This document shows positions 1-62,549 of a stretch of DNA of 64,000 bases, one piece after another; position 1 is the stretch's first letter; each line of letters opens with the position of its first letter. Position numbers and translations under genes: made by a program. The notes beneath the pieces were generated by a model, which saw nothing but the letters and a program-made list of their open reading frames with translations, was not told where the DNA came from and did no database searches. The stretch comes from an uncultured Gammaproteobacteria bacterium. Lineage in GTDB: Bacteria; Patescibacteriota; Microgenomatia; Daviesbacterales; UBA10151. The stretch is from contig CAZKCV010000001.1 of assembly GCA_964551605.1 (NCBI GenBank), positions 61,992-125,991 of the forward strand. Reading direction: 5' to 3'.

Positions 1-52
1 ATAATTTTTAGCGTAAAGTGTTAAGGGAGAAGGGTTAAGTTGACTTTACCCT

Positions 53-811
53 TTACGCTTCCCCCTTTACCCTAGCTAATGCTTTTTTTAAGTCCTCCGG
101 CAGGGGGCTTTCAAATTCCACCCACTCTCCGCTTACCGGGTGCTTAAAACCAATTTTGGCCGCATGTAAAAATATCCTGGGACACCATCTTTTATCTAGC
201 CTGGAAACCTTGCGGCCGGCGTATTTTTCATCAGCGACAACCGGATGGTTGATGTATTTTAAGTGTACCCTGATTTGATGCGTTCGTCCAGTTTTTGGCA
301 AACACCTTAAAAGAGTAAAGAGTTCATAGTTCATAGTTCGTAGTTTCTTAAGCTGAATCTTGTTAAAGCTTTCGAATATCTTTTCTACCAACTCTGAACT
401 CATAACTAATAACTTAATTGGCTCATACTCAGTCACTGCTTCTTTGCCTTCCGGCAAAACTATAAATTTCTCCCGGTTGCCGGGGTTTCTGCCCACGTTA
501 CCCTCCACTACTCCGGCTTCTCCAATGCTGCCGTGAACCAGGGCTAAATATTCCTTCCTGACGACTCTCTCCTGAAACTGTTTCTGCAAGCTTTCCAAAG
601 CTACGGCAGTTTTAGCTGCCAGGATTACACCTGAGGTATCCTTATCCAACCGATGTACGATCCCCCCTCTGGGAAGATTAATCTTAAATTCTTTCTGTAA
701 AATGCCGGCTAAGGTTTCTCCCTTGACGGTCTCTGCCGGATCCACTACTAATCCGGGGGGTTTATCCAAAACCAGCAACTGGTCATCTTCGTAAATTATT
801 TGAGGAATCAT
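53..811 (-). CDS. RluA-family pseudouridine synthase (RluD-like) with an in-frame ~30-aa insertion
   Basis: HRLDKDTSGVILAAKT catalytic-Asp block and TGRTHQIRVH block are present. An extra segment MSSELVEKIFESFNKIQLKKLRTMNYELF lies between the conserved blocks and is encoded by DNA carrying inverted AGTTNNT heptad arrays at 321-345 and 390-414. Confidence 0.85.
   Translation of the reverse strand: MIPQIIYEDDQLLVLDKPPGLVVDPAETVKGETLAGILQKEFKINLPRGGIVHRLDKDTSGVILAAKTAVALESLQKQFQERVVRKEYLALVHGSIGEAGVVEGNVGRNPGNREKFIVLPEGKEAVTEYEPIKLLVMSSELVEKIFESFNKIQLKKLRTMNYELFTLLRCLPKTGRTHQIRVHLKYINHPVVADEKYAGRKVSRLDKRWCPRIFLHAAKIGFKHPVSGEWVEFESPLPEDLKKALARVKGEA
321..414. mobile_element. MITE-like insertion: two inverted AGTTNNT heptad arrays (321-345; 390-414) around a ~45-bp core, in-frame inside the rluA-family CDS
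   Basis: agttcatagttcatagttcgtagtt faces its near-reverse-complement aactctgaactcataactaataact. The same array family occurs intergenically at 1215-1247, 3570-3637 and 24681-24717. Confidence 0.5.
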
Positions 812-814
812 GAA

Positions 815-1198
815 TCAACCGGCCTTCTGCAGATAGCTTCTGACTTCCGTTAACACCTGGTCAGGATTTAAGGCAGACTTTATCAGGTAGCCGTTTGCCC
901 CCAGCTCAAAACATTCCCGGATAACTGTATCCTGCCCCAAGTTTGTTAAAACAACAATTGTCTGAGGTGATTTAGGCGGAGACGCCTTCAAATCCCTTAA
1001 TATCTGGACACCATCTTTTTTAGGCAGCATCAGGTCTAAAAGAACCAGATTATAGGCGTTGTTTTGAATCTTTGTTAAACCTGTTTCACCTTCAGCTGCC
1101 GTATCAATGGTATAACCTTCAGCTACGAGCAGCTCTTCGTAAAATTCCCGTAAGAACTGATCATCTTCAACTATCAAGATCTTCTTCTGTTGATCCAT
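815..1198 (-). CDS. single-domain response regulator (CheY-like receiver)
   Basis: KILIVEDDQFLREFYEELL...LVLLDLMLPKKDG receiver motifs. It lies 47 bp downstream of the histidine kinase gene on the same strand. Confidence 0.8.
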   Translation of the reverse strand: MDQQKKILIVEDDQFLREFYEELLVAEGYTIDTAAEGETGLTKIQNNAYNLVLLDLMLPKKDGVQILRDLKASPPKSPQTIVVLTNLGQDTVIRECFELGANGYLIKSALNPDQVLTEVRSYLQKAG

Positions 1199-1214
1199 AT
1201 AACCTTTATACCAT

Positions 1215-1247
1215 AAACTACCAACTACGAACTACTAACTCATAACT
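1215..1247. repeat. AGTTNNT heptad array (reverse orientation) in the HK-RR intergenic spacer
   Basis: aaactaccaactacgaactactaactcataact has 7-bp periodicity and is the reverse complement of AGTTATG AGTTAGT AGTTCGT AGTTGGT. Confidence 0.6.
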
Positions 1248-2217
1248 AAATAGCCACCGGTTCTAAACCCTTAACTTCACCTTTTGGTTTTACCCTAAAG
1301 CTATCAATATTTTGTAAATTCTCTGCTGTTGCCACCGGCAATGATACTACAAAAGTAGAACCTTTGTTTATGCCTGCCGAATAAGCTTTAATTCTGCCGT
1401 GCATAAGCTCAATTAAGCTTTTGGAAATAAACAGCCCGAGACCGGTTCCGCCGGAAGTAGCAGTAGCTGTATAAGAATTATCCAACCGGCTGAACTTATG
1501 GAACAGCTTACCTAAATCTTCTCTTGACATGCCGACACCGGTATCAGAAACCGCAATTTCCACTGTTTTACCGTCACAGAAGAAATCGAAGCTAATTTTT
1601 CCTCCATGAGGCGTAAACTTCAAAGAATTTCCTACTAAGTTTAAGAATACCTGCCTAAGCTTCTCCGGATCGGCAAATATCTTGGGACACCGTTTTTCTA
1701 AAACCTCAAATTGTATGGTTTTTTCCTGGGACTTTGAATAATAAACCTCATCAACAATATCCTTAATCAGCAGCAGCGGGTCAATTTGTTCAGGGTTGAT
1801 CTCAATCTTATTCGCCTCAATCCGGGACACGTTTAACATATCGTTAACCAGGTTAATCAAGCGCTCGGTTGACATCAATACCCTGACTAAATACCTTTCC
1901 AGAGTCTTTGATAGCGGCACATCGCTCCGATTAAGCGCCATCCAGGCATAAGAGCGAATAGCGGTCATGGGTGTCCGCAGTTCATGGGAAGCAATGGATA
2001 CAAAATCATCCTTTAACCGGTCAAGTTCTTTTAACCTGTCATTGGCCTGCGCTAAAAGAGCCAGGGTATTGCGCAACTCCTGGTTTACTCTTTCATTTTC
2101 CTGTGTCAAGAGCGTTAGTCTCTTATTTTGTTCTTCCAGATCTTTAGTTTTTTTATTGTAGAAAAAATTAATAATTAAGATAACAACCAGGAGGCCAACG
2201 CTGATAATGATGATCAT
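1246..2217 (-). CDS. sensor histidine kinase (membrane-anchored, HisKA + HATPase_c)
   Basis: N-terminal TM helix and coiled coil. H-box FVSIASHELRTPMTAIRSY. G2 box GTGLGLFISKSLIELMHG. Confidence 0.85.
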   Translation of the reverse strand: MIIIISVGLLVVILIINFFYNKKTKDLEEQNKRLTLLTQENERVNQELRNTLALLAQANDRLKELDRLKDDFVSIASHELRTPMTAIRSYAWMALNRSDVPLSKTLERYLVRVLMSTERLINLVNDMLNVSRIEANKIEINPEQIDPLLLIKDIVDEVYYSKSQEKTIQFEVLEKRCPKIFADPEKLRQVFLNLVGNSLKFTPHGGKISFDFFCDGKTVEIAVSDTGVGMSREDLGKLFHKFSRLDNSYTATATSGGTGLGLFISKSLIELMHGRIKAYSAGINKGSTFVVSLPVATAENLQNIDSFRVKPKGEVKGLEPVAI

Positions 2218-2253
2218 TAGATCAGATTACTACAATAATGAAGGCATTGGCAA

Positions 2254-2610
2254 TTACTTAAGCTTAGAGGAGCAGGCCAGGCAATATTGGGCTGTCGGCA
2301 TAGCCCAAATCCTGCCGATTTCTATTTGTTTGTTGCATTTCTCGCATTTGCCGTAAACCCCGTTTTTGAGCTTAAACAGGGCTGCTTTAATGCTGGTCTT
2401 GGCCTTTTTAAGTTGCTGCTCCAATACTACTGTTTTAGCGTGCGTATCGGCAATGTAAGAATCAGTTCCCGGCTCGGAAGATTCTGCCAGGGAGGGACTT
2501 AGCACCGGATCGCCGTCGCTGACATCTTTGAGATTCTTATCAATCTCTTTTTCTTTTCTACGCAGTGTGTCCTTAATAAATTTAAGGGTTTTCTTGGGTA
2601 AACTTAACAT
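2254..2610 (-). CDS. DksA/TraR-family C4 zinc-finger protein
   Basis: C-x2-C-x17-C-x2-C motif (CEKCNKQIEIGRIWAMPTAQYCLAC) at the C-terminus, preceded by a coiled-coil region. Confidence 0.7.
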   Translation of the reverse strand: MLSLPKKTLKFIKDTLRRKEKEIDKNLKDVSDGDPVLSPSLAESSEPGTDSYIADTHAKTVVLEQQLKKAKTSIKAALFKLKNGVYGKCEKCNKQIEIGRIWAMPTAQYCLACSSKLK

Positions 2611-3544
2611 TTATCCTCCTTAACAGTTTTTTTATACCGCCGGAATTCTTCTTTAAACTCCTGAGCTTCCAGCCGATTATAGTTTTTTGATTATACCAGC
2701 TTTTAGATAAATTTTGCAGTACCCTTTTTCTGGTCTCGGGATCAACCGTCAGTTGTACTAAAAACCTTCTGAGAAGTTTAAGGTGGATTAAAGGATTTTG
2801 TTTCGTGACTCTATAATAAATAGTTAAGCCCAAAAGAATAAAAACCGGGGAAAACATCCTGCCTGAATGATCCTGTCTTAGGGGATCAAGGATCAGGGTA
2901 ATGATGCCCACATACAAAAACCCCAAAGCGGCAATCTTGCCCCTCTGGTGGAAATGGGTAGCTTTTGACCAGATTTTCAGTAAACCCAGAGTCAGTAGCA
3001 CAGCTTCAATTAACTGGACCGGCCACCTTTTTCCCAAGGCTCCGACTATTGAAATGCCAAAAATTGAATTGGTAGGGGTGCCAATATTACAGCCTCCTAA
3101 AAAGCAACCGAAGTCGGATAATACCATTCCGCCCAATATGCCTACGAAGGCAATATCAGCCAGCTGCCAGAAATCCAGGCGCTTCCGCCGGGCAAAGTAA
3201 TACAAGGTCAGCCAACCTCCCAAAATCCCGCCCCAAAAAGATAATCCCGTAACTTTATTAATTAACAGCAGATTAAGCGGTGAAGTTATGAAAATAGGCA
3301 GGTTTTCAATGGCAAAATAAACCCTCGCACCAACTATGGCACCAAAAACGGTCAATAAAGTCAGATCCAAAATTTTTTCCTCGTCTAAATCCCAGGCTCT
3401 GGCTAACCTCCAAACCAAAAACATTCCCAGTAAAAATCCTAATATTAAAAATATCCCGAAAGATGATACAGGCCATCCCCCGATTGAAAAAAGTACCGGT
3501 AACATGTTGCCAAATAGCCTACCATAACAGTTGGTTTGAATCAA
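2582..3544 (-). CDS. lgt: prolipoprotein diacylglyceryl transferase
   Basis: N-terminal LFSIGGWPVSSFGIFLILGFLLGMFLVWRLA and WGGILGG / GCFLGGCNIGTPTNSIFG blocks resemble the Lgt signature. Multi-TM. The ORF starts at TTG; an ATG at 3505 is an alternative start. Confidence 0.75.
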   Translation of the reverse strand: MIQTNCYGRLFGNMLPVLFSIGGWPVSSFGIFLILGFLLGMFLVWRLARAWDLDEEKILDLTLLTVFGAIVGARVYFAIENLPIFITSPLNLLLINKVTGLSFWGGILGGWLTLYYFARRKRLDFWQLADIAFVGILGGMVLSDFGCFLGGCNIGTPTNSIFGISIVGALGKRWPVQLIEAVLLTLGLLKIWSKATHFHQRGKIAALGFLYVGIITLILDPLRQDHSGRMFSPVFILLGLTIYYRVTKQNPLIHLKLLRRFLVQLTVDPETRKRVLQNLSKSWYNQKTIIGWKLRSLKKNSGGIKKLLRRINVKFTQENP

Positions 3545-3569
3545 ATGGACAAACAGGGTATACTTAAAT

Positions 3570-3637
3570 AGTTAGTAGTTATGAGTTCATAGTTCGTAGA
3601 CAAAACACTACGAACTACCAACTCCGAACTCAATACT
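3570..3637. repeat. palindromic pair of AGTTNNT heptad arrays with an 8-bp spacer (hairpin-capable) in a divergent intergenic region
   Basis: agttagtagttatgagttcatagttcgtag + acaaaaca + ctacgaactaccaactccgaactcaatact. The arms are near-perfect reverse complements. Confidence 0.65.
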
Positions 3638-3642
3638 CAATT

Positions 3643-4089
3643 ATGACTGCAACCGCACATGCATTAATAGGAGGAGCTATTGCCGCTTCCACTCCGGGAA
3701 ATCCTGCTTTGGGTTTAACACTGTCCGCGCTTTCCCATCCTCTGGTTGATTTAATCCCTCACTGGGATTTCGGGATCGGCTGGCAAAAGAAAGGTAAAAC
3801 TGTGCTCCTGCTACAATCTCTGGCTGATTTGGCTATCGGAGTCGGTCTAGCTTTTTTGATTTTTGGAAATTCCACCAATTATCTCTATCTGGCTCTTTGT
3901 ATATTAATGGCTGAATCCTTTGACATCCTGCAAATGCCTTATTTATTATTTAATTGGAAATTTCTGCCTTTTTCAGCCTTTTATCATTTCGGACACAGTA
4001 CCAATGGCCGGGCCAAAATGCCCTGGGGAATTGTCACACAGGCAGCCACTGTTTCAGGCCTTATTTTAGCCTTGCGGGTTCTGCACTAA
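3643..4089 (+). CDS. small His-rich integral membrane protein, possibly YdjM/DUF457-like metal-dependent hydrolase
   Basis: MTATAHALIGGAIAAS N-terminus, several TM segments, conserved-looking His residues. The family assignment is from memory only. Confidence 0.4.
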   Translation: MTATAHALIGGAIAASTPGNPALGLTLSALSHPLVDLIPHWDFGIGWQKKGKTVLLLQSLADLAIGVGLAFLIFGNSTNYLYLALCILMAESFDILQMPYLLFNWKFLPFSAFYHFGHSTNGRAKMPWGIVTQAATVSGLILALRVLH

Positions 4090-4956
4090 CTCATTTAAAT
4101 ACTCGGTAAATTCTTCACCTATCTCCGGATGCTTCTTGGCTAAATCAACCACGGTTTTCATGTACTCCAATTTATTGCCGGTATCATAATATTTGGCATT
4201 TTTCACCTCCACCGTATAAAGAGGAATGCCTTCATCACGCAGTAAGTTTATGGCATCAACCAGCCAGATTTCCCCGCCTTGACCCGGTTGGACCCTTTTG
4301 AGGGCCGAAAAAATTTCCGGAGGCAGGATATAAGCACCATGGGTAGCCAGGTTAGAAGGAGCTTTATCAGGATCCGGTTTTTCTACTATTGACTTAATCT
4401 TGTAGACATTGCCTTCTACCGGCTCAAGGTCTGCTATGCCGTAGCTGCTTAGATCCTCTTTTTTCTCAATTCTAACCCCGGAAATAACCATCCCCCCGTA
4501 TTTTTCATAGACATCAATCATTTGTTTTAACCGGGGCGGCTCTGCCAAAATAAACTCATCCCCCCAAACCACCGCAAAAGGCTCATCTTCAATGACCGAT
4601 TCCCCGGAAAGAACAGGTGTACCGTTGCCATAGGAACCTTTTTGGCGGATGTATATAAAATTAGCCATCTCCGAGATGTTTTTTAACTGCTCCAGGATCT
4701 TCTCTTTATTGCCGTTTACCAGGTTTTGAACCAAATCCTCGCTTGGCATATCAAAATGATCTTCAATGGCCCGCTTGGTGGCACCGGTCACCATAATAAT
4801 ATTGTCTATCCCGGAGCCGACTATTTCTTCCACCACATATTGGATAACAGGTTTATCCACAATGGGCAACATCTCCTTGGGCATGGCCTTGGTTTGGGGG
4901 AGGAAACGGGTTCCAAACCCGGCGGCAGGTATTAAAGCCTTAGTTATTTTTTTCAT
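4066..4956 (-). CDS. galU: UTP--glucose-1-phosphate uridylyltransferase
   Basis: KALIPAAGFGTRFLPQTKAMPKEMLPIVDKPVIQYVVEE is the classic GalU N-terminus. Length 296 aa. Confidence 0.9.
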   Translation of the reverse strand: MKKITKALIPAAGFGTRFLPQTKAMPKEMLPIVDKPVIQYVVEEIVGSGIDNIIMVTGATKRAIEDHFDMPSEDLVQNLVNGNKEKILEQLKNISEMANFIYIRQKGSYGNGTPVLSGESVIEDEPFAVVWGDEFILAEPPRLKQMIDVYEKYGGMVISGVRIEKKEDLSSYGIADLEPVEGNVYKIKSIVEKPDPDKAPSNLATHGAYILPPEIFSALKRVQPGQGGEIWLVDAINLLRDEGIPLYTVEVKNAKYYDTGNKLEYMKTVVDLAKKHPEIGEEFTEYLNELVQNPQG

Positions 4957-9821: not shown

Positions 9822-9905
9822 GCCGGGGTGGCGGAATGGCAGACGCGAAGGTCTCAAAAACCTTTGGTCCTAAAGATCATGAGGGTTCGACTCCCTCCCC
9901 CGGCA
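9822..9905 (+). tRNA. tRNA-Leu(CAA), class II with long variable arm
   Basis: Acceptor GCCGGGG/CCCCGGC. Anticodon stem AAGGT/ACCTT with loop CTCAAAA (anticodon CAA). Long variable arm. T-arm GAGGG-TTCGACT-CCCTC. Discriminator A. No encoded CCA. Confidence 0.85.
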
Positions 9906-9907
9906 CA

Positions 9908-11266
9908 CTATGCAGCTGCAGCCAATTCTTTAGATTCTTCCTTAGGTTTACCCCTGGTTTTTTCCATACCATAGAATTTAGTCCTATCAGCCCTGAAAAC
10001 CAGGTTTATCTCCCCTGTTGGACCATTTCTGTGTTTTTGAATATCTAATATCACCTGTTCCGGGTGCTCCGGATCTTCCCGCCAGATAAACATCACTACA
10101 TCAGCATCCTGTTCAATTGCTCCCGACTCCCGAAGGTCGGCCAGCTGCGGCTTTTTTATCCCTCTTTGCTCTACTGCCCGGGATAGTTGTGAAATGGCCA
10201 GGACCGGAATTTTTAACTCCCTGGCCAAATTTTTTAAATTCTGGGAGATTTCCGAAACCTCCTGAACCCTGTTATCCAAGTTTCTCCCTTTTATAAGCTG
10301 CAGATAATCTACAATTAAGAATTTCAAACCATGTTCAATTTGTAACCTTCTGGCCTTTGTCCTCATCTCGGAAATGGTAATCCCCGGGGTATCATCTATA
10401 AAAATGGGGGCCTCTGCCAGCTCTCCCATGGCCAGGGACAGCTTATCAAAATCCTTTTCATCAAGCCTCCCGGTTTTTAACTTCCAGGCATCTATGTCAG
10501 CCTGCCCCACCAATAACCTGTCTACCAGTTCTTCCTGGCTCATTTCCAGAGAAAAAATCCCCACCGGCAGTCCGGCAGTAACCGCTACATATTGGGCAAT
10601 ATTTAATGCCATGGAAGTTTTACCCTGGCCGGGGCGGGAAGCCAGGATTATCAAATTGGAATTCTGCATGCCGGCTAATTTATTATCCAAATCCCTAAAA
10701 CCTGTCGGTACACCGCGCAATTTTCCGGAAGATTTTTGTAACTCATCCAGCCTGTCGAAGGATTCAGTCAAGGCATCTTTAATCGGCAAAAAATCCCGGC
10801 TGACATGTTCCTGTGAGATAGAAAAGATACCTGCTTCAGCAGATTCCAGCAGTTCTTCAACGGATTCTCCTTCATCATACGCCCGTTGTATCAAAGCAGT
10901 GGCCTGGGCAATTAAACTCCTCCTGACGGCATGGTCTTTAACAATCCTGGCATAATGTTCAATATGGGCCGAGGTAGGAACAATATTAATTAAGGAGGTT
11001 AAATATGCGGACCCGCCGACTTTGTCATAAACGCTTTTTCTCTTAAGCTCTTCTGTTACGGTAACCAAATCTATCGGTTCCCGCCTTTCAAACAAGCTCT
11101 GAATGGCTTCATAAATAAAACCATGCTGTTCTGAGCGGTAAAAGTAAGTCGGGTGCAGTATTTCCGAAATCCGGACTATTGCATCTTTGTCAATCAGAAG
11201 CGCCCCCAAAAGGGATTGCTCAGCATCAATGTTTTGTGGAGGAAGTTTTGTTATTGGCTGCGCCAT
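9908..11266 (-). CDS. dnaB: replicative DNA helicase DnaB
   Basis: Walker A in LIILASRPGQGKTSMALNIAQ. DnaB N-terminal domain present. 452 aa with no intein. Convergent with the tRNA-Leu gene, 2-bp gap. Confidence 0.9.
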   Translation of the reverse strand: MAQPITKLPPQNIDAEQSLLGALLIDKDAIVRISEILHPTYFYRSEQHGFIYEAIQSLFERREPIDLVTVTEELKRKSVYDKVGGSAYLTSLINIVPTSAHIEHYARIVKDHAVRRSLIAQATALIQRAYDEGESVEELLESAEAGIFSISQEHVSRDFLPIKDALTESFDRLDELQKSSGKLRGVPTGFRDLDNKLAGMQNSNLIILASRPGQGKTSMALNIAQYVAVTAGLPVGIFSLEMSQEELVDRLLVGQADIDAWKLKTGRLDEKDFDKLSLAMGELAEAPIFIDDTPGITISEMRTKARRLQIEHGLKFLIVDYLQLIKGRNLDNRVQEVSEISQNLKNLARELKIPVLAISQLSRAVEQRGIKKPQLADLRESGAIEQDADVVMFIWREDPEHPEQVILDIQKHRNGPTGEINLVFRADRTKFYGMEKTRGKPKEESKELAAAA

Positions 11267-11385
11267 AATTCGGTTATCGGTTTTCTGTTTTCAGTTTTCG
11301 GATGAAAGTTGGCCGGTTTTCAGTTAACCGGTTAACAGACAACTGAAAAACCTGAATCTGATAACCGACAACTGAGAACTGATAA
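11267..11385. repeat. complex nested palindromes upstream of dnaB
   Basis: GGTTTTCAGTT-AACCGGTTAAC-AGACAACTGAAAAACC inverted repeat. ATCGGTTATCGGTT is paired with GATAACCGACAAC. gttttcag occurs three times. Confidence 0.55.
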
Positions 11386-12042
11386 CTAACTCTTCCCTAA
11401 CACCACCACCTGTGGCTCTTCCGGCAGCTTCTCTTTTGTAATCGATAACTTCGGGACCGGAACCACCCCTTCAGCTCCCATCTCTTTTAAGAAATTCTCC
11501 ACCCCTTCCAGATCAAATTTTAATCCGTCTATTTTATAGTGCATGGGGATGATAATTTTCGGTTCCAGCTGGGCGACAATTTCCGAGGCCACTTTGGCAT
11601 CAATGGTATAAACCGAGCCCACCGGAATTAAAAGAATATCTGTCTGGCCGATCTGGGCCACCTGTTCTTCTGTTAATTTTGTCTGTCCTAAATCTCCTAA
11701 ATGCACAATGTCTAATCCGTCAAAAAGTATATGAAAAATAGTATTGGCTCCGCGCTCGCTTCCCTCTGAATTATCATGGAATGAGTTAATGCCGGTTACT
11801 ACCACTCCGGCTACTTCATACTCCCCGGGCCTTGAAAAAACCATCGGCCGGCTGCCTTGGGCGCTAACAACCGGAGAACTAAAATTATGATCTTCATGCT
11901 CATGGGAAGTCAACACCATATCGGCCTGCAGATCTTTAGGGAGTTTAAGTCCGGTAAATTCCGGGCTGAATGGATCTATAATGACAGCGGCATTTTTACC
12001 CTTTATCTTAAAGCATGCTTGTCCATACCAATAAATATCCAT
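11386..12042 (-). CDS. MBL-fold metal-dependent hydrolase (UPF0173-like)
   Basis: N-terminal MDIYWYGQACFKIKGK and HEHEDH metal-binding motif. Start moved to the internal ATG at 12042. Confidence 0.8.
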   Translation of the reverse strand: MDIYWYGQACFKIKGKNAAVIIDPFSPEFTGLKLPKDLQADMVLTSHEHEDHNFSSPVVSAQGSRPMVFSRPGEYEVAGVVVTGINSFHDNSEGSERGANTIFHILFDGLDIVHLGDLGQTKLTEEQVAQIGQTDILLIPVGSVYTIDAKVASEIVAQLEPKIIIPMHYKIDGLKFDLEGVENFLKEMGAEGVVPVPKLSITKEKLPEEPQVVVLGKS

Positions 12043-12093: not shown

Positions 12094-12546
12094 ATGCTAA
12101 AATGTTGTCAGATGAAGTTAACCAGGAAATTATCCAAAAAGGTCTTTTTTATTTCCCAGCTTTTAATTCTGATTTTCGGTTTAATATTCATAGGCGGGCT
12201 TTATTATATTCTAAATATCCAGTATGAAGAGCCAAACAGGCCTTTTTTAGCCGGGCCCGTAACTACCCCTCCCAAAAGCCTGCGCTTGGATCTGGACCAG
12301 CCTGAACCGGATATTCTATCTTACAGTCCGTCAATTATTGTTTCCGGCAAAACCGGACCCTCCCGGGAAGTTTTAATTTTTACCGATACCGATGATCTGG
12401 TAATAAAATCCAAAGCCGACGGCTCCTTTTCCACTGTCTTAAACTTGGATGAAGGAGTAAATAAAATTACTGCCGTGGTTTTTGATGCAACCGGCGATTT
12501 CCGGTCAGCCGAAAGGATAGTTTATTATTCTAAGGAGAAAATATGA
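12094..12546 (+). CDS. hypothetical membrane-anchored protein (possible leaderless start at the ATG at 12112)
   Basis: N-terminal TM helix plus a beta-rich extracytoplasmic region. A TGcTAAAAT extended -10 at 12095-12103 sits immediately before the ATG at 12112. Confidence 0.4.
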   Translation: MLKCCQMKLTRKLSKKVFFISQLLILIFGLIFIGGLYYILNIQYEEPNRPFLAGPVTTPPKSLRLDLDQPEPDILSYSPSIIVSGKTGPSREVLIFTDTDDLVIKSKADGSFSTVLNLDEGVNKITAVVFDATGDFRSAERIVYYSKEKI

Positions 12547-13319
12547 AAAGCGTCAAGGGGAAAGCGTCAAGGGGAAAGGTAATAATTTTAACTATACTAT
12601 TATTATTTTTAATTCTTCACCCTTCACCCTTCACCCTTCACCCTATTTTAGCTGCCGAAGGCAGCCCATCAGCCGAGATCAAATCCAAACTCGAGGAGCT
12701 AAAGAGAGATATTGCCTCAAAGGCCGCTAAATTAAAACAAGAGGTAAACCGCAAACTAAAAGATAAAGCTTATGTCGGAACTATTCAGGCCAAGTCAGAT
12801 ACTTCCTTAACCCTGGCAACTGCATCCGGCCCGAAAATGGTCAGTTTTAATGAGGATACAATTTTTGAAAACAAGAAAGGAGTCACCTCCAAAACTCAAA
12901 GATCCATAGTCACTGCCAAATCTCTAACCCAGGATGACTATATTGCCGCTTTAGGAGACAGCGATGAAACAGGGGTGCTGCTGACCAGAAAAATTATATT
13001 ACTGCCAACTCCGGACTCTGAACTCAAAACTTATTTATGGGGCCAGGTAGTCTCGCGTTCAGATAATTTGGTGAATATAAAAGATAAGGGTTCCGAAAAC
13101 ATTGCTGCCAGCTTGCCTGAACCCCCTAAGATCAGCTTAAATGACATTGTGATATTAACCGGCAGTAAAAATGAAGAGGAAATCTTTGAAGCAGAATTTG
13201 TTCATGTCATTCCCCAAAGCGGAATGATTAAGCCAAAAAAAATTGCTACTCCCTCTGCCAGAATCGCCAGTCCCTCTGCTGAGCAAAGCTCGCGGACTTC
13301 GCCCACTAAACCCCGTTAG
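12543..13319 (+). CDS. hypothetical secreted protein with tandem-repeat-encoded N-terminus
   Basis: Signal-peptide-like N-terminus. The DNA carries (aaagcgtcaagggg)x2 at 12547-12574 and (caccctt)x4 at 12618-12645 inside the 5' end of the CDS. Confidence 0.4.
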   Translation: MKSVKGKASRGKVIILTILLLFLILHPSPFTLHPILAAEGSPSAEIKSKLEELKRDIASKAAKLKQEVNRKLKDKAYVGTIQAKSDTSLTLATASGPKMVSFNEDTIFENKKGVTSKTQRSIVTAKSLTQDDYIAALGDSDETGVLLTRKIILLPTPDSELKTYLWGQVVSRSDNLVNIKDKGSENIAASLPEPPKISLNDIVILTGSKNEEEIFEAEFVHVIPQSGMIKPKKIATPSARIASPSAEQSSRTSPTKPR

Positions 13320-18882: not shown

Positions 18883-19818
18883 ATGAATCAAGATTACCTA
18901 AAAGAACAAATTGATCAGATAAACAGACGCATCCAGGACATCAAGTCTTTGCTGGAAGATCCGGAAATGGCTGAACTGGCAGCAGAGGAAATTACCGAGC
19001 TGGAAAGACAAAAAGAGGAATTGCAGTCATCAGTCGTCAGTCATCAGTCGTCAGATGATTCAAACAGTCTGACAGCTGACAGCGAAGCGATACTGAAATC
19101 TGACAGCTGTATATTAGAAATCCGCTCAGCAGCCGGCGGAGATGAAGCCGGGCTTTTTGCCGGAGATTTGCTGCGGATGTATACCAAGTTTGCTCTAAAT
19201 AAAAAGTGGAAGATTGAGGAACTGGACAGATCAGAGGGAAAATTAGGGCAAATTAAGGAAATTGTACTCAAAATAGTCGGAAAAGGCTGTTTTGACTTAT
19301 TAAAATATGAATCCGGTGTACACCGGGTACAAAGGGTACCCACCACTGAATCTTCCGGCCGGATTCACACTTCAACTTCCACCGTAGCAGTACTCCCCCA
19401 TGTCACGGAAGCACAGGTTGCTATTAATCCGGGAGATATAGAATTTGAGGCTTTCAGAAGCGGAGGCGCAGGAGGACAAAATGTTAATAAAGTCTCCACA
19501 GCCGTCAGACTAAAACACATCCCCACAGGAATCACAGTCACTGCCCAAACCGAGCGTTCACAGTTACAAAACAGGGGAAATGCCCTTTCGCTCCTTAGAG
19601 CCAAGCTCTGGGAAATGGAGCAGCAAAAAACTGTCGGAGATATTGAAACACAAAGATCTACTCAAGTGGGAACCGGTGAAAGATCGGAAAAAATCAGGAC
19701 ATATAATTTTCCCCAAAACCGGGTGACTGACCACCGGATCAACAAATCCTGGCATAATTTAGACAGGATCTTAGAAGGAGACCTGGATGATATCATCCAA
19801 ACCCTCTCAGTACATTAA
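18883..19818 (+). CDS. prfA: peptide chain release factor 1
   Basis: GGQ motif ([18 protein letters not shown]). Codon-recognition tripeptide region [17 protein letters not shown] is PxT-type. Contains the 7-bp tandem (cagtcrt)x4 at 19024-19054. Confidence 0.85.
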
Positions 19819-20500
19819 GGGCTGGGTAGAATTTTACAAGTTAAAGTTTAAAGTTACCCCTGATGTTTTAATCCCCCGCCCGGAAACAGAATTATTAGTA
19901 GATGAGGTTTTACGGTACTGTAACCTGTACCCTGAAACCTGTAACCTGATTCTGGACCTTGGTACCGGCTCCGGAAATATTGCCATTTCCATTGCCAAAA
20001 ACTTACGTTTACACCCTTGGGGTGTAAACGTAACAATTGTTGCTACCGATATTTCCCAAAAAGCCCTTAAAGTAGCCAAACAAAATGCGAAGGTGTATGG
20101 AGTCTCCGACCGGATTATCTTTCTCCAGTCTGATCTGCTTAATTATTCAAAAAGTCGACGATCGTCAGATTTTTGTCAACTTGTTCCTGATATTATTGTT
20201 ACGAATCTGCCTTATATCCCGTCCGCCCGGATTCCCTACCTGGACTCTTCAGTCAAGGATTTTGAACCGCATGTCGCGTTGGATGGTGGTGAAAACGGCT
20301 TTAAGCTTTATAGAAAGCTTTTTCAACAGCTTAAATATAGGAACTGGACACCCAAATTACTCATTGGCGAAATCGACTACACTCATGGGGAACTGGCAGC
20401 AAATGAGGCACAAAAGTATTTTCCTGAAGCCTTAATTGAAGTTAAAAAAGACCTGGCTCACTTACAAAGGATCTTAACAATCGAGCATTTCACTGATTAG
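19787..20500 (+). CDS. prmC: release-factor glutamine N5-methyltransferase PrmC/HemK (short N-terminus)
   Basis: NPPY-type motif [12 protein letters not shown]-binding [12 protein letters not shown]. Overlaps the prfA 3' end by 32 bp. Confidence 0.75.
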
Positions 20501-24662: not shown

Positions 24663-24717
24663 TCTAGTGTACCACTAGATAGTTATGAGTTGGTAGTTAT
24701 TAGTTCGTAGTAATTTC
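24663..24717. repeat. perfect CTAG hairpin (tctagtg-tac-cactaga) plus AGTTNNT heptad array directly upstream of the 24659 start
   Basis: agttatg agttggt agttatt agttcgt agtaatt at 24681-24717. Confidence 0.6.
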
Positions 24718-56001: not shown

Positions 56002-56009
56002 TTTTTTGA

Positions 56010-56037
56010 TTAGAAATTAAAAATTAGAAATTAGAAA
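56010..56037. repeat. 7-bp tandem array ttagaaa-ttaaaaa-ttagaaa-ttagaaa between the purH stop and the purB start
   Basis: Same array type as 25571-25598. Confidence 0.6.
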
Positions 56038-56040
56038 TTT

Positions 56041-61016: not shown

Positions 61017-62549
61017 TTATTCCCACTCCATAGTGGCTGGGGGTTTGTTGGTAATGTCGTAAACTACCCTGTTAACTTCTTTTACCTCATTTACAATTCT
61101 GGTTGATATTTTTTCCAAAACATCATATGGCAACTTGGCAAAATTGGCAGACATGGCATCAGTTGCTTCAATAGCCCTAATTGCAATGGTCTCTCCATAA
61201 AACCGCTGGTCACCTCTTACTCCGGTGGTTTTAATGCCGGTAAAGACTGCAAAGAATTGCCAGAGTTTTTTATCTAATCCGGCTTTTTCAATTTCTTCCA
61301 GGACAATTTTATCCGCTCTTCTTAAGATGCTTAATTTTTCTTCCGTTACCTCACCTATAATTCTAACTGCAAGGGCCGGGCCGGGAAAAGGCTGCCGGGC
61401 TATAATCTCATCAGGCAATCCTAAGATGCTGCCAATTTTCCTGACTTCATCTTTATAGAAATTTCGCAGTGGTTCAACCAGCACTAAATTCATATCTTCC
61501 GGGAGTCCTCCGACATTATGATGTGATTTTATCTTCTGTGAATGTTTGCTGCCGGCAGACTCTATCACATCCGGATAAATGGTTCCCTGCACCAAAAATT
61601 TGGCATTAATTTTTTTTGCTTCTTTCTCAAACACTTCTATAAAAGTTTTACCGATTACTTTTCTCTTTTCCTCCGGGTCCACAACTCCTTTTAAGGCTTT
61701 CAAAAAATCTTGTCTGGCATCGACAATATCCACATTCATTTTGTATTTGTTTCGGAAAACTTCCCGCAAAGTTTCTGTCTCACCTTCACGCATTAACCCG
61801 GAGTCAACATAAACAGAAGTTAAATTTTTGCCAATAGCTTTGTGTACCAACAATGCGGCCACTGAGGAATCTACTCCGCCGGACAGGGCACATACAGCTT
61901 TTTCATTCCCTACAGAATCCTTGATATCTTTGATAAGATTTTCTACAAACGCGTTGTTAATTTCCTGTTTCGTAATTTCAATACCACAAATCTCTAAAAA
62001 GTTTTTTAAAAGCTGCTCACCAAACTCGGTATGTACCACTTCCGGATGAAATTGAATACCAAAAAGTTTTTTATTTTTATTTTCAATAATGGCATGTGGG
62101 ATTGTTTCAGTTTTACCTAAAGTTTCAAATCCTTCCGGAATTTTTATTACCTGATCTCCATGACTCATCCATGCAGTAAATTTTTCTGGAATATCTTTCA
62201 ACAACTGTACCCTGTACCCTGTACCCTGTACCCTAACTTCTGCTGGTCCGTATTCTCTTTTTCGTCCGGCTACCACTTCTCCTTCTAACAAATGACACAT
62301 CAATTGTTGTCCGTAACAAATTCCTAAAACCGGAATTCCTAACTTAAATATTTCCGGATCTATTGTAGGTGACTCTTTTTCAAAAACAGCCGCCGGCCCG
62401 CCTGATAAAATTATTCCCTGTGGTTTTACTTCGCTAACCTTCTGCATGGCAGATTCCGGAATGGTAATTACCACATCGGATCCCAATTCTCGGAGTCTCC
62501 TGAATATCAGATGTGTTGTTTGTGACCCAAAATCAATTAATAAAATCAT
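61017..62549 (-). CDS. guaA: GMP synthase (glutamine-hydrolysing)
   Basis: GATase domain GICYGQQLM. PP-loop SGGVDSSV. Contains (gtaccct)x4 at 62207-62234 encoding VRVQGTGYRVQ. Convergent with purA, 2-bp gap. Confidence 0.9.
   Translation of the reverse strand: MILLIDFGSQTTHLIFRRLRELGSDVVITIPESAMQKVSEVKPQGIILSGGPAAVFEKESPTIDPEIFKLGIPVLGICYGQQLMCHLLEGEVVAGRKREYGPAEVRVQGTGYRVQLLKDIPEKFTAWMSHGDQVIKIPEGFETLGKTETIPHAIIENKNKKLFGIQFHPEVVHTEFGEQLLKNFLEICGIEITKQEINNAFVENLIKDIKDSVGNEKAVCALSGGVDSSVAALLVHKAIGKNLTSVYVDSGLMREGETETLREVFRNKYKMNVDIVDARQDFLKALKGVVDPEEKRKVIGKTFIEVFEKEAKKINAKFLVQGTIYPDVIESAGSKHSQKIKSHHNVGGLPEDMNLVLVEPLRNFYKDEVRKIGSILGLPDEIIARQPFPGPALAVRIIGEVTEEKLSILRRADKIVLEEIEKAGLDKKLWQFFAVFTGIKTTGVRGDQRFYGETIAIRAIEATDAMSANFAKLPYDVLEKISTRIVNEVKEVNRVVYDITNKPPATMEWE

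What the first reader, a model, noticed from the sequence alone, without database searches (positions are those of the whole stretch)
321..414. MITE-like element made of inverted AGTTNNT heptad arrays inserted in-frame into a pseudouridine synthase gene
The RluA-family protein carries about 30 extra residues (MSSELVEKIFESFNKIQLKKLRTMNYELF) between conserved blocks. The encoding DNA (about 314-417) begins with agttcatagttcatagttcgtagtt and ends with its near-reverse-complement aactctgaactcataactaataact. The same heptad arrays occur intergenically as an almost perfect palindrome at 3570-3637 (arms separated by 8 bp) and as single arrays at 1215-1247 and 24681-24717. This looks like a small non-autonomous repeat element, comparable to Correia, BIME or RUP elements, that can land in-frame in a tolerant surface loop of an essential enzyme.
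Basis: seen in the sequence. Interest (0 to 1): 0.7.

Follow-up and report, generated by a model that had tools for sequence, protein, structure and literature searches.

The report
Heptanucleotide repeat arrays inside rluA
The extra 30 residues of this pseudouridine synthase are flanked by two inverted arrays of a 7-base repeat, but they are an old, conserved feature of all Daviesbacteria, and the arrays belong to a clade-wide class of about 30-base heptanucleotide repeats that keep being remodelled at fixed sites, not to a recently inserted transposon-like element.

Summary
AGTTNNT arrays lie at 321-345 and 390-414 inside an RluA/RluD-type gene (53..811, minus strand). More lie at 1213-1247, 3570-3637 and 24681-24712: 13 pattern matches against 0.03 expected. 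The protein has 30 residues where solved RluD has 3.

The MITE reading is only partly supported. All 36 Daviesbacteria orthologues examined carry the extra segment, with a nearly invariant centre (FNKIQxRKL). It is predicted, with high confidence, to form a two-helix hairpin. It is absent from other Microgenomates.

At the same site, other genomes carry arrays of the same length but different units (GGTTACA, AATTTTC, AAGTATC, AAATGTC and others). The closest relative is 86% identical in the rest of the gene but 47% in the segment.

AGTT is one of about ten heptad units in this window. Period-7 arrays are the only enriched period, cluster at 30-33 nt, sit mainly in the roughly 8% non-coding DNA, often starting at a stop codon, and also lie in frame in prfA, prmC and guaA. 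Array codons are conserved at synonymous sites (0.81 against 0.51).

Best reading: heptanucleotide tandem repeats of the kind known in cyanobacteria, Xanthomonas and Beggiatoaceae, here as a coding-region variant in the candidate phyla radiation (CPR). The generating mechanism is inferred, not shown.

The parts
53..811 (-). RluA/RluD-family pseudouridine synthase gene, 252 aa, catalytic domain only
   Evidence: ORF; PF00849; Foldseek top hits RluD, RluC and RluA, TMq 0.83; 100% match to Candidatus Daviesbacteria metagenome contigs
326..415 (-). Daviesbacteria-specific extra segment, residues 133-162, predicted two-helix hairpin (H139-145, H151-159) between strands E126-136 and E164-172
   Evidence: Gap against solved RluD; AlphaFold2 mean pLDDT 94.4, about 95 across the insert; present in all 36 Daviesbacteria orthologues, absent in Gottesman-, Levy- and Woesebacteria
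390..414 (-). Arm 1: heptad array, on the coding strand AGTTATT AGTTATG AGTTCAG AGTT, encoding about LLVMSSEL
   Evidence: period-7 self-match 0.76 against at most 0.40 for other periods
346..389 (-). Centre of the segment (VEKIFESFNKIQLK), ordinary coding sequence under protein-level conservation
   Evidence: F146, I152, Q153, K156 and L157 invariant in 22 sequences; Q153 still invariant and the others at least 90% conserved in 104 sequences; third-position identity 0.27-0.73 between same-type pairs (0.27-0.64 in all but two), like the rest of the gene
319..345 (+). Arm 2: heptad array AGTTCAT AGTTCAT AGTTCGT AGTT on the + strand (coding strand AACTACG AACTATG AACTATG AACT), encoding about KLRTMNYEL
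   Evidence: period-7 self-match 0.86
11..73 (.). Palindromic pair of CTTTACC/GGTAAAG-type arrays spanning the rluA stop codon; it encodes the C-terminal RVKGEA
   Evidence: RNA hairpin z = -3.98, 0 of 200 shuffles; public short-read contigs L001-L004 end inside it
1213..1247 (-). Single AGTT-family array that starts at the histidine-kinase stop codon and fills the spacer before the response-regulator gene
   Evidence: absent in closest relative L085 (32-bp indel); orthologous spacers hold other heptad units
3570..3637 (.). Intergenic inverted pair of AGTT-family arrays between divergent lgt and ORF148, downstream of a promoter-like site at 3536-3564
   Evidence: clean 67-bp presence/absence against L085, where the empty site reads CATTAGTTAATTTAAG
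24681..24712 (+). Single AGTT-family array between the rpsR stop and the next gene's start
   Evidence: absent in closest relative L088
11269..11387 (.). Inverted pair of other heptad units (TTCGGTT / NAACTGA-like) filling the spacer between the metallo-beta-lactamase-fold gene (MBL) and dnaB
   Evidence: RNA z = -3.74; spacer is 25 nt in L088
12547..12644 (+). In-frame pair of arrays (AAAGCGTCAAGGGG x2.3; CTTCACC x4.3) in the N-terminus of ORF 12543..13319
   Evidence: RNA z = -2.67; diverged from L088
19024..19109 (+). In-frame inverted pair (CAGTCRT x4.4 / CTGACAG-type) in the linker of release factor 1 (residues 48-76)
   Evidence: RNA z = -2.35; linker hypervariable among 120 homologues, with recurring peptide types
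19918..19948 (+). In-frame CTGTAAC-family array in PrmC (residues 44-54)
   Evidence: replaces diverged sequence, +9 nt against L088
25571..25600 (+). TTAGAAA-family array filling the rpsF-ssb spacer
   Evidence: absent in L088
28427..28455 (+). Perfect CTAATTC x4.1 array upstream of ychF
56009..56039 (+). ATTAGAA-family array filling the purH-purB spacer
62205..62234 (-). Perfect CTGTACC x4.3 array in frame in GMP synthase (residues 106-115, VRVQGTGYRVQ)
   Evidence: same site is a hot spot with other 7-aa-periodic peptides in homologues

Best explanation
The rluA segment is an ancient insertion of about 27 extra residues (a 30-residue stretch where RluD has 3), specific to Daviesbacteria, in a beta-hairpin turn of the catalytic domain. 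Its two ends are encoded by inverted heptanucleotide tandem arrays. These arrays are local instances of a clade-wide class of about 30-nt (4.3-unit) heptanucleotide repeats. The class is of the kind described as heptamer long simple-sequence repeats, STRR, TAACTGA or GGGAATC repeats in other phyla.

Shown: the arrays crowd into the few permissive places of a genome that is about 92% coding. These places are stop-to-start spacers and a few tolerant protein loops. The same sites hold different units in different genomes. Close relatives differ by presence or absence of arrays. Within a unit type, the array DNA is conserved even at synonymous sites, while the centre of the insert evolves as ordinary coding sequence under protein selection.

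Inferred: arrays are generated and kept homogeneous by misaligned replication or repair in a 7-nt register. The inverted partner is made or corrected by intrastrand template switching on the hairpin. In genes, only in-frame, stop-free outcomes of constant length survive. Each unit position is read in all three codon positions, so homogenisation plus selection on the peptide would freeze synonymous sites.

The insert most likely began as an arm-spacer-arm array pair, like those still seen at the same turn in other Microgenomates. Its centre was then retained as a helical hairpin. The arrays need have no function in rluA.
For: Segment in all orthologues with invariant centre. Absent from other Microgenomates. 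Those genes have arrays at the same turn without the centre (L044, an arm-arm pair; L046; L049).

Different units of the same length at the same site: arm 1 has at least 70% period-7 self-match in 24 of 36 orthologues, arm 2 in 9 of 36.

Distinct complementary arm pairs in at least five sequence versions: cognate duplex energy -19 to -30 kcal/mol against a non-cognate mean of -10.5.

Closest relative: 0.86 identity in the rest of the gene, 0.47 in the segment.

Codon identity given identical amino acid: arm 1 0.81, centre 0.60, rest of gene 0.51 (by part).

Period 7 alone is enriched: 12 arrays against 0-5 for periods 5-10 in the window; 38 against at most 7, and 32 against at most 8, in relatives.

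Length mode is 30-33 nt. 46 of 110 arrays lie in the 9% non-ORF DNA, and 18 of 32 codirectional arrays start within -23 to +9 nt of the upstream stop.

The same hot-spot behaviour appears in the kinase-regulator spacer, the RF1 linker and GuaA.

Known parallels: PMC4692102 and PMC4679880.
Against: A sharp length mode near 30 nt, rather than a decaying distribution, is not what simple slippage predicts.

The AGTT arrays keep a fixed 4-nt core with variable triplets, and a few triplets recur (CGT, ATG, GGT, CAT). That looks like copies of a template or a selected motif, not fresh slippage products.

Exact unit sharing between loci is four times the composition null (0.0118 against 0.0028), which hints at dispersal or selection.

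Array density differs sharply between close relatives: 12 arrays in 64 kb here against 1 in 41.7 kb. That would fit the gain or loss of a dedicated activity.

No copy-number polymorphism was seen; four independent assemblies have identical arrays.

The gene tree used to call the distribution of types patchy is a weak neighbour-joining tree on about 210 residues. The pairs are not independent.
Confidence: 0.55

Rival explanations
1. Mobile module: pre-formed arrays of about 30 nt, or palindromic array pairs of about 70 nt, are inserted or replaced at preferred sites by an unidentified enzyme. The rluA arms are copies of such a family.
For: Clean presence/absence of the 67-bp palindrome and of other arrays against the closest relative. 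W's AGTT arrays share multi-unit strings and the same terminal AGTTCGTAG or AGTTGGTAG. Characteristic length of about 30 nt. Units are shared between genes and genomes above the null. Array-rich and array-poor sister genomes exist.
Against: No target-site duplication or defined termini at the polymorphic sites. The rluA copy shares only its arms with the intergenic copies. The centre is conserved coding sequence present in all orthologues. The rluA AGTT arms are older than the intergenic copies: they are shared with L005-L007 and L014 at 64-70% nucleotide identity in the rest of the gene. Arrays within one genome are no more alike than arrays in different genomes (0.107 against 0.088). No candidate enzyme was found, but only 64 kb was available.
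Confidence: 0.17
2. Functional nucleic-acid element: the arrays are binding sites or structures acting on mRNA or DNA. Possible roles are translation coupling or initiation at stop-start junctions that lack Shine-Dalgarno sequences, stops in all three frames, or RNA stability. The in-gene copies are either collateral or act on the mRNA.
For: Synonymous-site conservation is confined to the arrays. Arrays start at stop codons and end a median of 18 nt before the next start. AGTTNNT, TTTCTAA and GAATTAG units put a stop codon in all three frames (read directly from the sequence). Paired arrays fold better than shuffles, z = -2.4 to -4.4. The same proposal was made for TAACTGA repeats (PMC4679880).
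Against: Units differ completely between orthologous sites, so no single sequence-specific factor fits. Close relatives do without the arrays at the same junctions. Arrays occur in both orientations relative to transcription. The rluA hairpin is weak, z = -1.72. No Rfam family matches and no terminator-like tails were found.
Confidence: 0.15
3. Cassette exchange by homologous recombination between Daviesbacteria lineages: whole variable segments are swapped using the conserved flanks, which gives the patchy distribution of types.
For: Segment types are patchy on a tree built from the rest of the protein. W resembles L005-L007 in the segment (0.84-0.86) but L085 in the flanks (0.86). The RF1 linker shows the same pattern.
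Against: Between same-type pairs, only the arrays are unusually similar. The centre has ordinary third-position identity, 0.36-0.45 for W against L005, L006 and L014. A recent transfer of the whole cassette would not produce that. The flanks are only about 70% identical between the supposed donors and recipients.
Confidence: 0.08
4. Chance, or protein-level selection for 7-residue periodic peptides, with no DNA-level repeat process.
For: The arm peptides show 7-aa periodicity (for example KCQMSNVKCQM, LQVTGNRLQ).
Against: The periodicity is 7 nt, not 21 nt. There are perfect 4-copy arrays (L011, L017, L028, L042) and identical kinds of arrays in non-coding spacers. The pattern count is 13 against 0.03 expected.
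Confidence: 0.02

Closest known systems
Heptanucleotide long simple-sequence repeats: cyanobacterial STRR, Xanthomonas/Nostoc GGGAATC-type repeats (Rehm et al. 2015, PMC4692102), TAACTGA repeats of Beggiatoaceae, cyanobacteria and Bacteroidetes (MacGregor 2015, PMC4679880); over-representation of 7-nt units reported by Mrazek et al. 2007 (as cited in both papers)
   Same: Tandem 7-nt units, typically about 4 copies. A conserved core with variable positions. Mostly intergenic. Often overlapping the upstream stop codon and close to the next start. Stop codons in all three frames in one orientation. Occasional inverted pairs. Length and sequence variation between close relatives at the same intergenic site. 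Mechanism unknown, with polymerase slippage proposed.
   Different: Here the host is a CPR bacterium (Microgenomates). No paper in the library combines heptamer repeats with CPR terms. Many unrelated units coexist in one genome. Arrays sit in frame inside conserved housekeeping enzymes (rluA, prfA, prmC, guaA). Orthologous coding sites keep array length while the unit changes. Array codons are conserved at synonymous sites.
Rickettsia palindromic elements (RPE; Ogata et al. 2000, my own knowledge; mentioned in PMC1779305 and PMC10969869)
   Same: Palindromic repeat DNA found in frame inside protein-coding genes, adding a peptide segment that the enzyme tolerates.
   Different: RPEs are dispersed copies of 100-150 bp that are similar over their whole length, and they are not built of heptads. 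Here only the arms are repetitive, the centre is unique and conserved, and the arm sequence differs between orthologues.
   Same: Small, non-coding, hairpin-forming, dispersed, and polymorphic between relatives.
   Different: No terminal inverted repeats bounding a conserved body, no target-site duplication, no full-length family, no cognate transposase seen. The repeats are tandem heptads.
Small dispersed repeats (SDR) nested in heptamer arrays of Nostoc (Elhai et al. 2008; my own knowledge, paper not held)
   Same: In some orthologues, short GC-rich hairpins with tetraloop-like loops sit inside the arm-1 heptad array: L021 CTGCCTTCGGCAG, L023 CCCCCGAAGGGG, L027 GTAGCGGAGCTAC.
   Different: Seen here only in relatives, in frame within a gene. 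Not compared with the SDR sequences.

Membership tests
Heptanucleotide tandem repeats (LSSR / STRR-like) | Head-to-tail copies of a 7-nt unit, three or more copies | tested here: met
   TRF and period-7 run scans: 3.4-4.7 copies at every listed array
Heptanucleotide tandem repeats (LSSR / STRR-like) | Period 7 over-represented relative to neighbouring periods in the genome | tested here: met
   Window: 12 arrays at period 7 against 0, 5, 1, 2 and 1 for periods 5, 6, 8, 9 and 10. Relatives: 38 against at most 7, and 32 against at most 8
Heptanucleotide tandem repeats (LSSR / STRR-like) | Preferentially intergenic, near gene ends | tested here: met
   6 of 12 arrays in the window lie in 7.5% non-coding DNA. 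46 of 110 lie in 9% non-ORF DNA, and half of the codirectional ones start at the stop codon. The loci are centred on rluA, which inflates the in-gene count
Heptanucleotide tandem repeats (LSSR / STRR-like) | Copy-number polymorphism from slippage | not testable with these tools
   Only assembled contigs are available; four assemblies are identical. Read-level data are needed
MITE (Correia, RUP and similar) | Terminal inverted repeats bounding a conserved internal sequence, in many near-identical copies | tested here: not met
   The rluA copy and 3570-3637 share only the heptad arms. The spacers are 44 nt of coding sequence against 8-11 nt
MITE (Correia, RUP and similar) | Target-site duplication at insertion sites | tested here: not met
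   Filled and empty sites compared at two loci. The empty site CATTAGTTAATTTAAG holds one AGTT-like unit but no duplication flanks the insert. About 14% divergence limits resolution
MITE (Correia, RUP and similar) | Cognate transposase in the genome | not tested
   Only 64 kb of the genome was available, and its proteins were not all scanned
REP/BIME | Extragenic imperfect palindromes of 20-40 bp with a conserved GTAG or CGTC head, mobilised by a RAYT transposase | tested here: inconclusive
   The arrays do end in ...CGTAG or GGTAG at the inner stem. However, they are heptad arrays, they occur inside genes, and no RAYT was sought
Rickettsia palindromic elements | Dispersed family similar over the full 100-150 bp, inserted in frame in many genes | tested here: not met
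   In-frame palindromic pairs exist in rluA, prfA and ORF 12543, but each has different units and a unique centre
RluA/RluD pseudouridine synthase family (host gene) | PseudoU_synth_2 domain with the HRLD catalytic-aspartate motif and the RluD fold | tested here: met
   PF00849 102 bits; HRLDKDTSG conserved; Foldseek against RluD E=5e-26, TMq 0.83

The most novel reading that the evidence does not exclude
Heptad arrays in Microgenomates are actively maintained modules of about 30 nt. On this reading an unrecognised activity writes, homogenises or swaps 4-unit heptanucleotide arrays, often as inverted pairs, at fixed sites, including inside essential genes. It would be present in array-rich genomes and lost from array-poor sisters. 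Alternatively, the arrays serve translation at Shine-Dalgarno-less stop-start junctions. Either would explain the sharp length mode, the synonymous-site conservation, the all-or-none replacement between close relatives and the shared repertoire of units.
Probability: 0.2. Interest if true: 0.8.

Novelty: new variant of a known kind. Interest (0 to 1): 0.55.

Why it matters
Heptanucleotide repeats have been known since 1990 in cyanobacteria, and since 2007 as the most over-represented repeat period in many bacteria, yet neither their origin nor their function is understood.

These CPR genomes offer a natural experiment. The genomes are tiny and almost fully coding, so arrays are forced into a handful of sites that can be aligned across hundreds of metagenomic relatives. 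That exposes properties that are hard to see elsewhere:
- array length stays constant while the unit is replaced;
- inverted arms change together;
- synonymous sites are conserved within arrays;
- sister genomes can be array-rich or array-poor.

The case also shows that repeat DNA can supply new protein sequence to conserved enzymes. In rluA the insert has acquired an invariant core. There is a practical side too: such arrays break short-read assemblies and distort protein alignments of CPR housekeeping genes.

Tried and rejected
- Rfam scan of the whole window: only a tRNA at 9822-9905, nothing at any array.
- Promoter and terminator scan of 1-4200: no terminator-like site at the arrays. Counts did not exceed shuffles. 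One promoter-like site lies just upstream of the 3570 palindrome.
- Genome-specific repeat families: arrays within a locus are no more alike than arrays from different loci (0.107 against 0.088 of pairs within one mismatch). The idea that each genome has its own family was dropped.
- Recent horizontal transfer of the whole rluA cassette: rejected as the main cause, because only the arrays, not the centre, are unusually similar between same-type pairs.
- Hairpin covariation as evidence for a selected RNA structure: cognate arms pair better than non-cognate arms only in subsets. Many orthologues are at background, and the window's own hairpin is weak.
- Target-site duplications at filled and empty sites: none found.
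They show the motif is widespread (GC 0.21-0.68; an inverted partner within 150 nt in 12 of 80 and 4 of 80 loci) but give no frequency and no control.
- Elhai et al. 2008 could not be read. The comparison with SDR elements rests on memory.
- The window's proteins were not all scanned for transposase-like genes.
Full report
**What is there**

The window is from a Candidatus Daviesbacteria genome (Microgenomates, candidate phyla radiation). The best relatives of the gene are all Daviesbacteria metagenome-assembled genomes.

ORF 53..811 on the minus strand encodes a 252-residue RluA/RluD-type pseudouridine synthase. It hits PF00849, and its best structural matches are RluD, RluC and RluA (TMq 0.83).

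- 321-345 reads AGTTCAT AGTTCAT AGTTCGT AGTT.
- On the coding strand, 414-390 reads AGTTATT AGTTATG AGTTCAG AGTT.
- The pattern occurs 13 times in the window against 0.03 expected. The sites are the two arms in rluA, 1213-1247, the inverted pair 3570-3594 / 3606-3637, and 24681-24712.

Against solved RluD, the protein has 30 residues (133-162, window 326-415) where RluD has three.

**The segment is old and conserved, not a recent insertion**

I recovered the orthologous region from 36 Daviesbacteria loci.
- All 36 have the extra segment. Its length is the same apart from a few secondary insertions.
- The centre is nearly invariant. F146, I152, Q153, K156, L157 and Y162 are identical in 22 sequences; in 104 sequences Q153 and Y162 stay identical and the others are at least 90% conserved.
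- Orthologues from Gottesman-, Levy- and Woesebacteria lack the segment and have a short turn there.

AlphaFold2 on a 104-sequence alignment gives mean pLDDT 94.4. The insert is modelled as two helices (139-145, 151-159) between strands 126-136 and 164-172, at pLDDT about 95.

So the insert replaces a beta-turn with a helical hairpin. Its core is under purifying selection. It is not merely tolerated.

**The arms are a hot spot for heptad arrays of changing sequence**

At the arm-1 position, other genomes carry arrays of the same length (about 30 nt) but with different units:
- GGTTACA (L008, L019, L085)
- AGTCTTC (L009, L015)
- AATTTTC, four perfect copies (L011, L025, L029)
- AAGTATC, four perfect copies (L017)
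- AAATGTC (L028)
- AATTTAC (L027, L042)
- GCGTTTA (L020)
- ACAATTG (L022)

These are shown. Period-7 self-match is at least 0.7 in arm 1 of 24 of 36 orthologues and in arm 2 of 9 of 36. Three or four orthologues show no heptad periodicity at all.

Arm 2 is complementary to arm 1 only in some lineages, but in at least five different sequence versions. Cognate duplex energies are -19 to -30 kcal/mol against a non-cognate mean of -10.5.

The closest relative (L085, the genome of P0002) is 86% identical in the rest of the gene but 47% in the segment (33% at third positions, which is random level), with the same length. More distant genomes (L005-L007, L014) share the window's AGTT arms at 79-86% identity while the rest of the gene is 64-70% identical.

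This excess similarity lies in the arrays, not the centre. Between same-type pairs, third-position identity is 0.7-1.0 in arm 1 and 0.27-0.73 in the centre. Over 48 diverged pairs with the same arm-1 peptide, codons for identical amino acids are identical in 81% of cases in arm 1, 60% in the centre and 51% in the rest of the gene. These pairs are not independent.

That pattern argues against recent transfer of the whole cassette. It points to maintenance of the repeat itself at the nucleotide level.

**The AGTT arrays are one case of a general phenomenon**

The window holds twelve period-7 arrays against 0-5 for periods 5-10. Their units are unrelated: CTTTACC, TTCGGTT, NAACTGA, CTTCACC, CAGTCRT, CTGTAAC, TTAGAAA, CTAATTC, ATTAGAA and CTGTACC.
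- Six lie in the 7.5% of the window that is non-coding.
- They usually fill stop-to-start spacers (rpsF-ssb, purH-purB, MBL-dnaB, rpsR-next gene, kinase-regulator).
- The others are in frame in release factor 1 (an inverted pair), PrmC, GMP synthase and a secreted protein.
- A further inverted pair (11-73) spans the rluA stop codon and encodes its last six residues.

Paired arrays fold better than shuffles, z = -2.4 to -4.4. The rluA pair is the weakest, z = -1.72.

Period 7 is also the only enriched period in 0.64 Mb of Daviesbacteria loci and in 0.73 Mb of other Microgenomates loci. Over 110 arrays:
- length peaks at 30-33 nt;
- 42% lie in the 9% of DNA outside ORFs;
- 18 of 32 arrays between codirectional genes begin within -23 to +9 nt of the upstream stop codon.

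**Other sites behave like rluA**
- The kinase-regulator spacer carries arrays that start at the stop codon, with different units in different genomes. Examples are TAGTNNG in W, L005 and L008; TAGCGTA in six copies in L014; AAATGTA in four copies in L027; CAATTGA in L019; and full palindromes in L011, L017 and L023. Several genomes have none, including the closest relative.
- The RF1 linker and the GuaA site show recurring 7-residue-periodic peptide types. Examples are VRVQGTGYRVQ, LNFQFSIFNFQ, ISIKYQVSSIK and LQLTIDNGQLT. Some match the types seen in rluA arm 1.
- Non-Daviesbacteria rluA genes have arrays at the same beta-turn, and at a second site near residue 45, without the conserved centre. 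L044 has a bare arm-arm pair.

**Turnover between close relatives**

In 41.7 kb of the closest relative there is one period-7 array, the rluA arm 1. The window has twelve in 64 kb.
- Every intergenic array of the window that could be compared is absent from the relative.
- The kinase-regulator array is shared with more distant genomes, so that one was lost in the relative.
- The in-gene arrays correspond to stretches that are far more diverged than their flanks.

**Interpretation**

The element is not MITE-like in the defining respects:
- It has no bounded body repeated elsewhere.
- It has no target-site duplication.
- Its centre is unique conserved coding sequence.
- It predates the intergenic copies.

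It fits the class of heptanucleotide tandem repeats known from cyanobacteria, Xanthomonas and Beggiatoaceae. In those groups the same traits are described: about four units, a conserved core with variable positions, inverted pairs, overlap with stop codons, proximity to start codons, and variation between close relatives. Slippage over a polymerase footprint has been proposed as the cause (PMC4692102; PMC4679880). I found no paper linking such repeats to the candidate phyla radiation.

I think the most likely mechanism has three parts:
- slippage or misaligned repair in a 7-nt register, which generates and homogenises arrays;
- hairpin template switching, which creates and corrects the inverted partner;
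- selection that passes only in-frame, stop-free arrays of constant length.

Because each unit position is read in all three codon phases, homogenisation plus peptide selection would explain the frozen synonymous sites. These steps are inferred, not shown.

Several observations are not well explained by plain slippage and keep a dedicated-activity or functional reading alive. These are the sharp 30-nt length mode, the fixed-core-plus-variable-triplet structure, unit sharing above the composition null, and the contrast between array-rich and array-poor sister genomes.

**Limits**
- Only 64 kb of the genome was available.
- The loci are centred on rluA, which biases the count of in-gene arrays.
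- ORF calls are crude.
- The tree is weak.
- One key paper (Elhai 2008) could not be read.

Noticed in passing
window 19024-19109, 19918-19948, 62205-62234, 12547-12644: In-frame heptad arrays sit inside release factor 1 (an inverted pair in the linker), PrmC, GMP synthase (perfect CTGTACC x4.3) and the N-terminus of a secreted protein. The RF1 and GuaA sites are hypervariable hot spots, with recurring 7-aa-periodic peptide types across 120 homologues each.
   Followed up: partly
window 11-73: A palindromic pair of CTTTACC/GGTAAAG arrays spans the rluA stop codon and encodes the C-terminal RVKGEA. Similar C-termini (RVKGQA, RVKGKA) recur patchily in orthologues. Four public short-read contigs (L001-L004) end inside this palindrome, so such arrays appear to break assemblies.
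   Followed up: partly
L021, L023, L026, L027 (rluA arm 1); proteins P0113, P0115, P0056, P0076, P0105, P0033, P0035: Short GC-rich hairpins with tetraloop-like loops (CTGCCTTCGGCAG, CCCCCGAAGGGG, GTAGCGGAGCTAC) are inserted in frame inside the heptad array of some orthologues. This is reminiscent of the small dispersed repeats nested in Nostoc heptamer arrays.
   Followed up: no
rluA orthologues L006, L007, L014, L021, L023, L024, L026, L037, L041, L042; P0102, P0109, P0114: There is a second variable in-frame insertion site just after the conserved REKFxV. It holds peptides of 5-50 residues such as SPGRSQGPPSRWS and VSPGRRARPLEQSTPPRWPNGLLGGGR, which look like translated GC-rich palindromes. 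The window's gene has no insert there.
   Followed up: no
L046 10114-10147, L049 10112-10150, L057, L048, L055 (rluA near residues 40-55): In non-Daviesbacteria Microgenomates there is a further heptad-array hot spot in rluA, for example (AATTTTC)4 encoding KFSIFNFQFSI. L049 has the same unit family at both hot spots of one gene.
   Followed up: partly
window 3536-3643 against L085 7260-7340: A promoter-like site, TTGAAT-17-TATACT, lies about 12 nt before the ORF148 start codon in the closest relative (a near-leaderless arrangement). In the window the 67-bp heptad palindrome separates it from the start codon, giving a structured leader without an evident Shine-Dalgarno sequence.
   Followed up: partly
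window 1199-1245 and orthologous spacers: A conserved TGGTATAAA (extended -10-like) motif lies 12-15 nt upstream of the response-regulator start codon in several genomes, immediately downstream of the heptad array. This suggests an internal promoter with a very short leader.
   Followed up: no
window 9908-11266 against L085 1-602 / L088 987-3818: DnaB is 452 aa here. In the closest relative it is 943 aa, with an intein and LAGLIDADG endonuclease domain.
   Followed up: no
window 11333-11387: The arm CAACTGA GAACTGA TAACTAA resembles the TAACTGA heptamer repeats described in Beggiatoaceae, cyanobacteria and Bacteroidetes. TAACTGA arrays are also AGTT/AACT-core heptads (reverse complement AGTTATC).
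   Followed up: no
L090-L169 (metagenomes) and L210-L289 (viral contigs): (AGTTNNT)n arrays of 4-6 copies occur in contigs of GC content 0.21-0.68 and in viral contigs. An inverted AACT array lies within 150 nt in 12 of 80 and 4 of 80 loci.
   Followed up: partly
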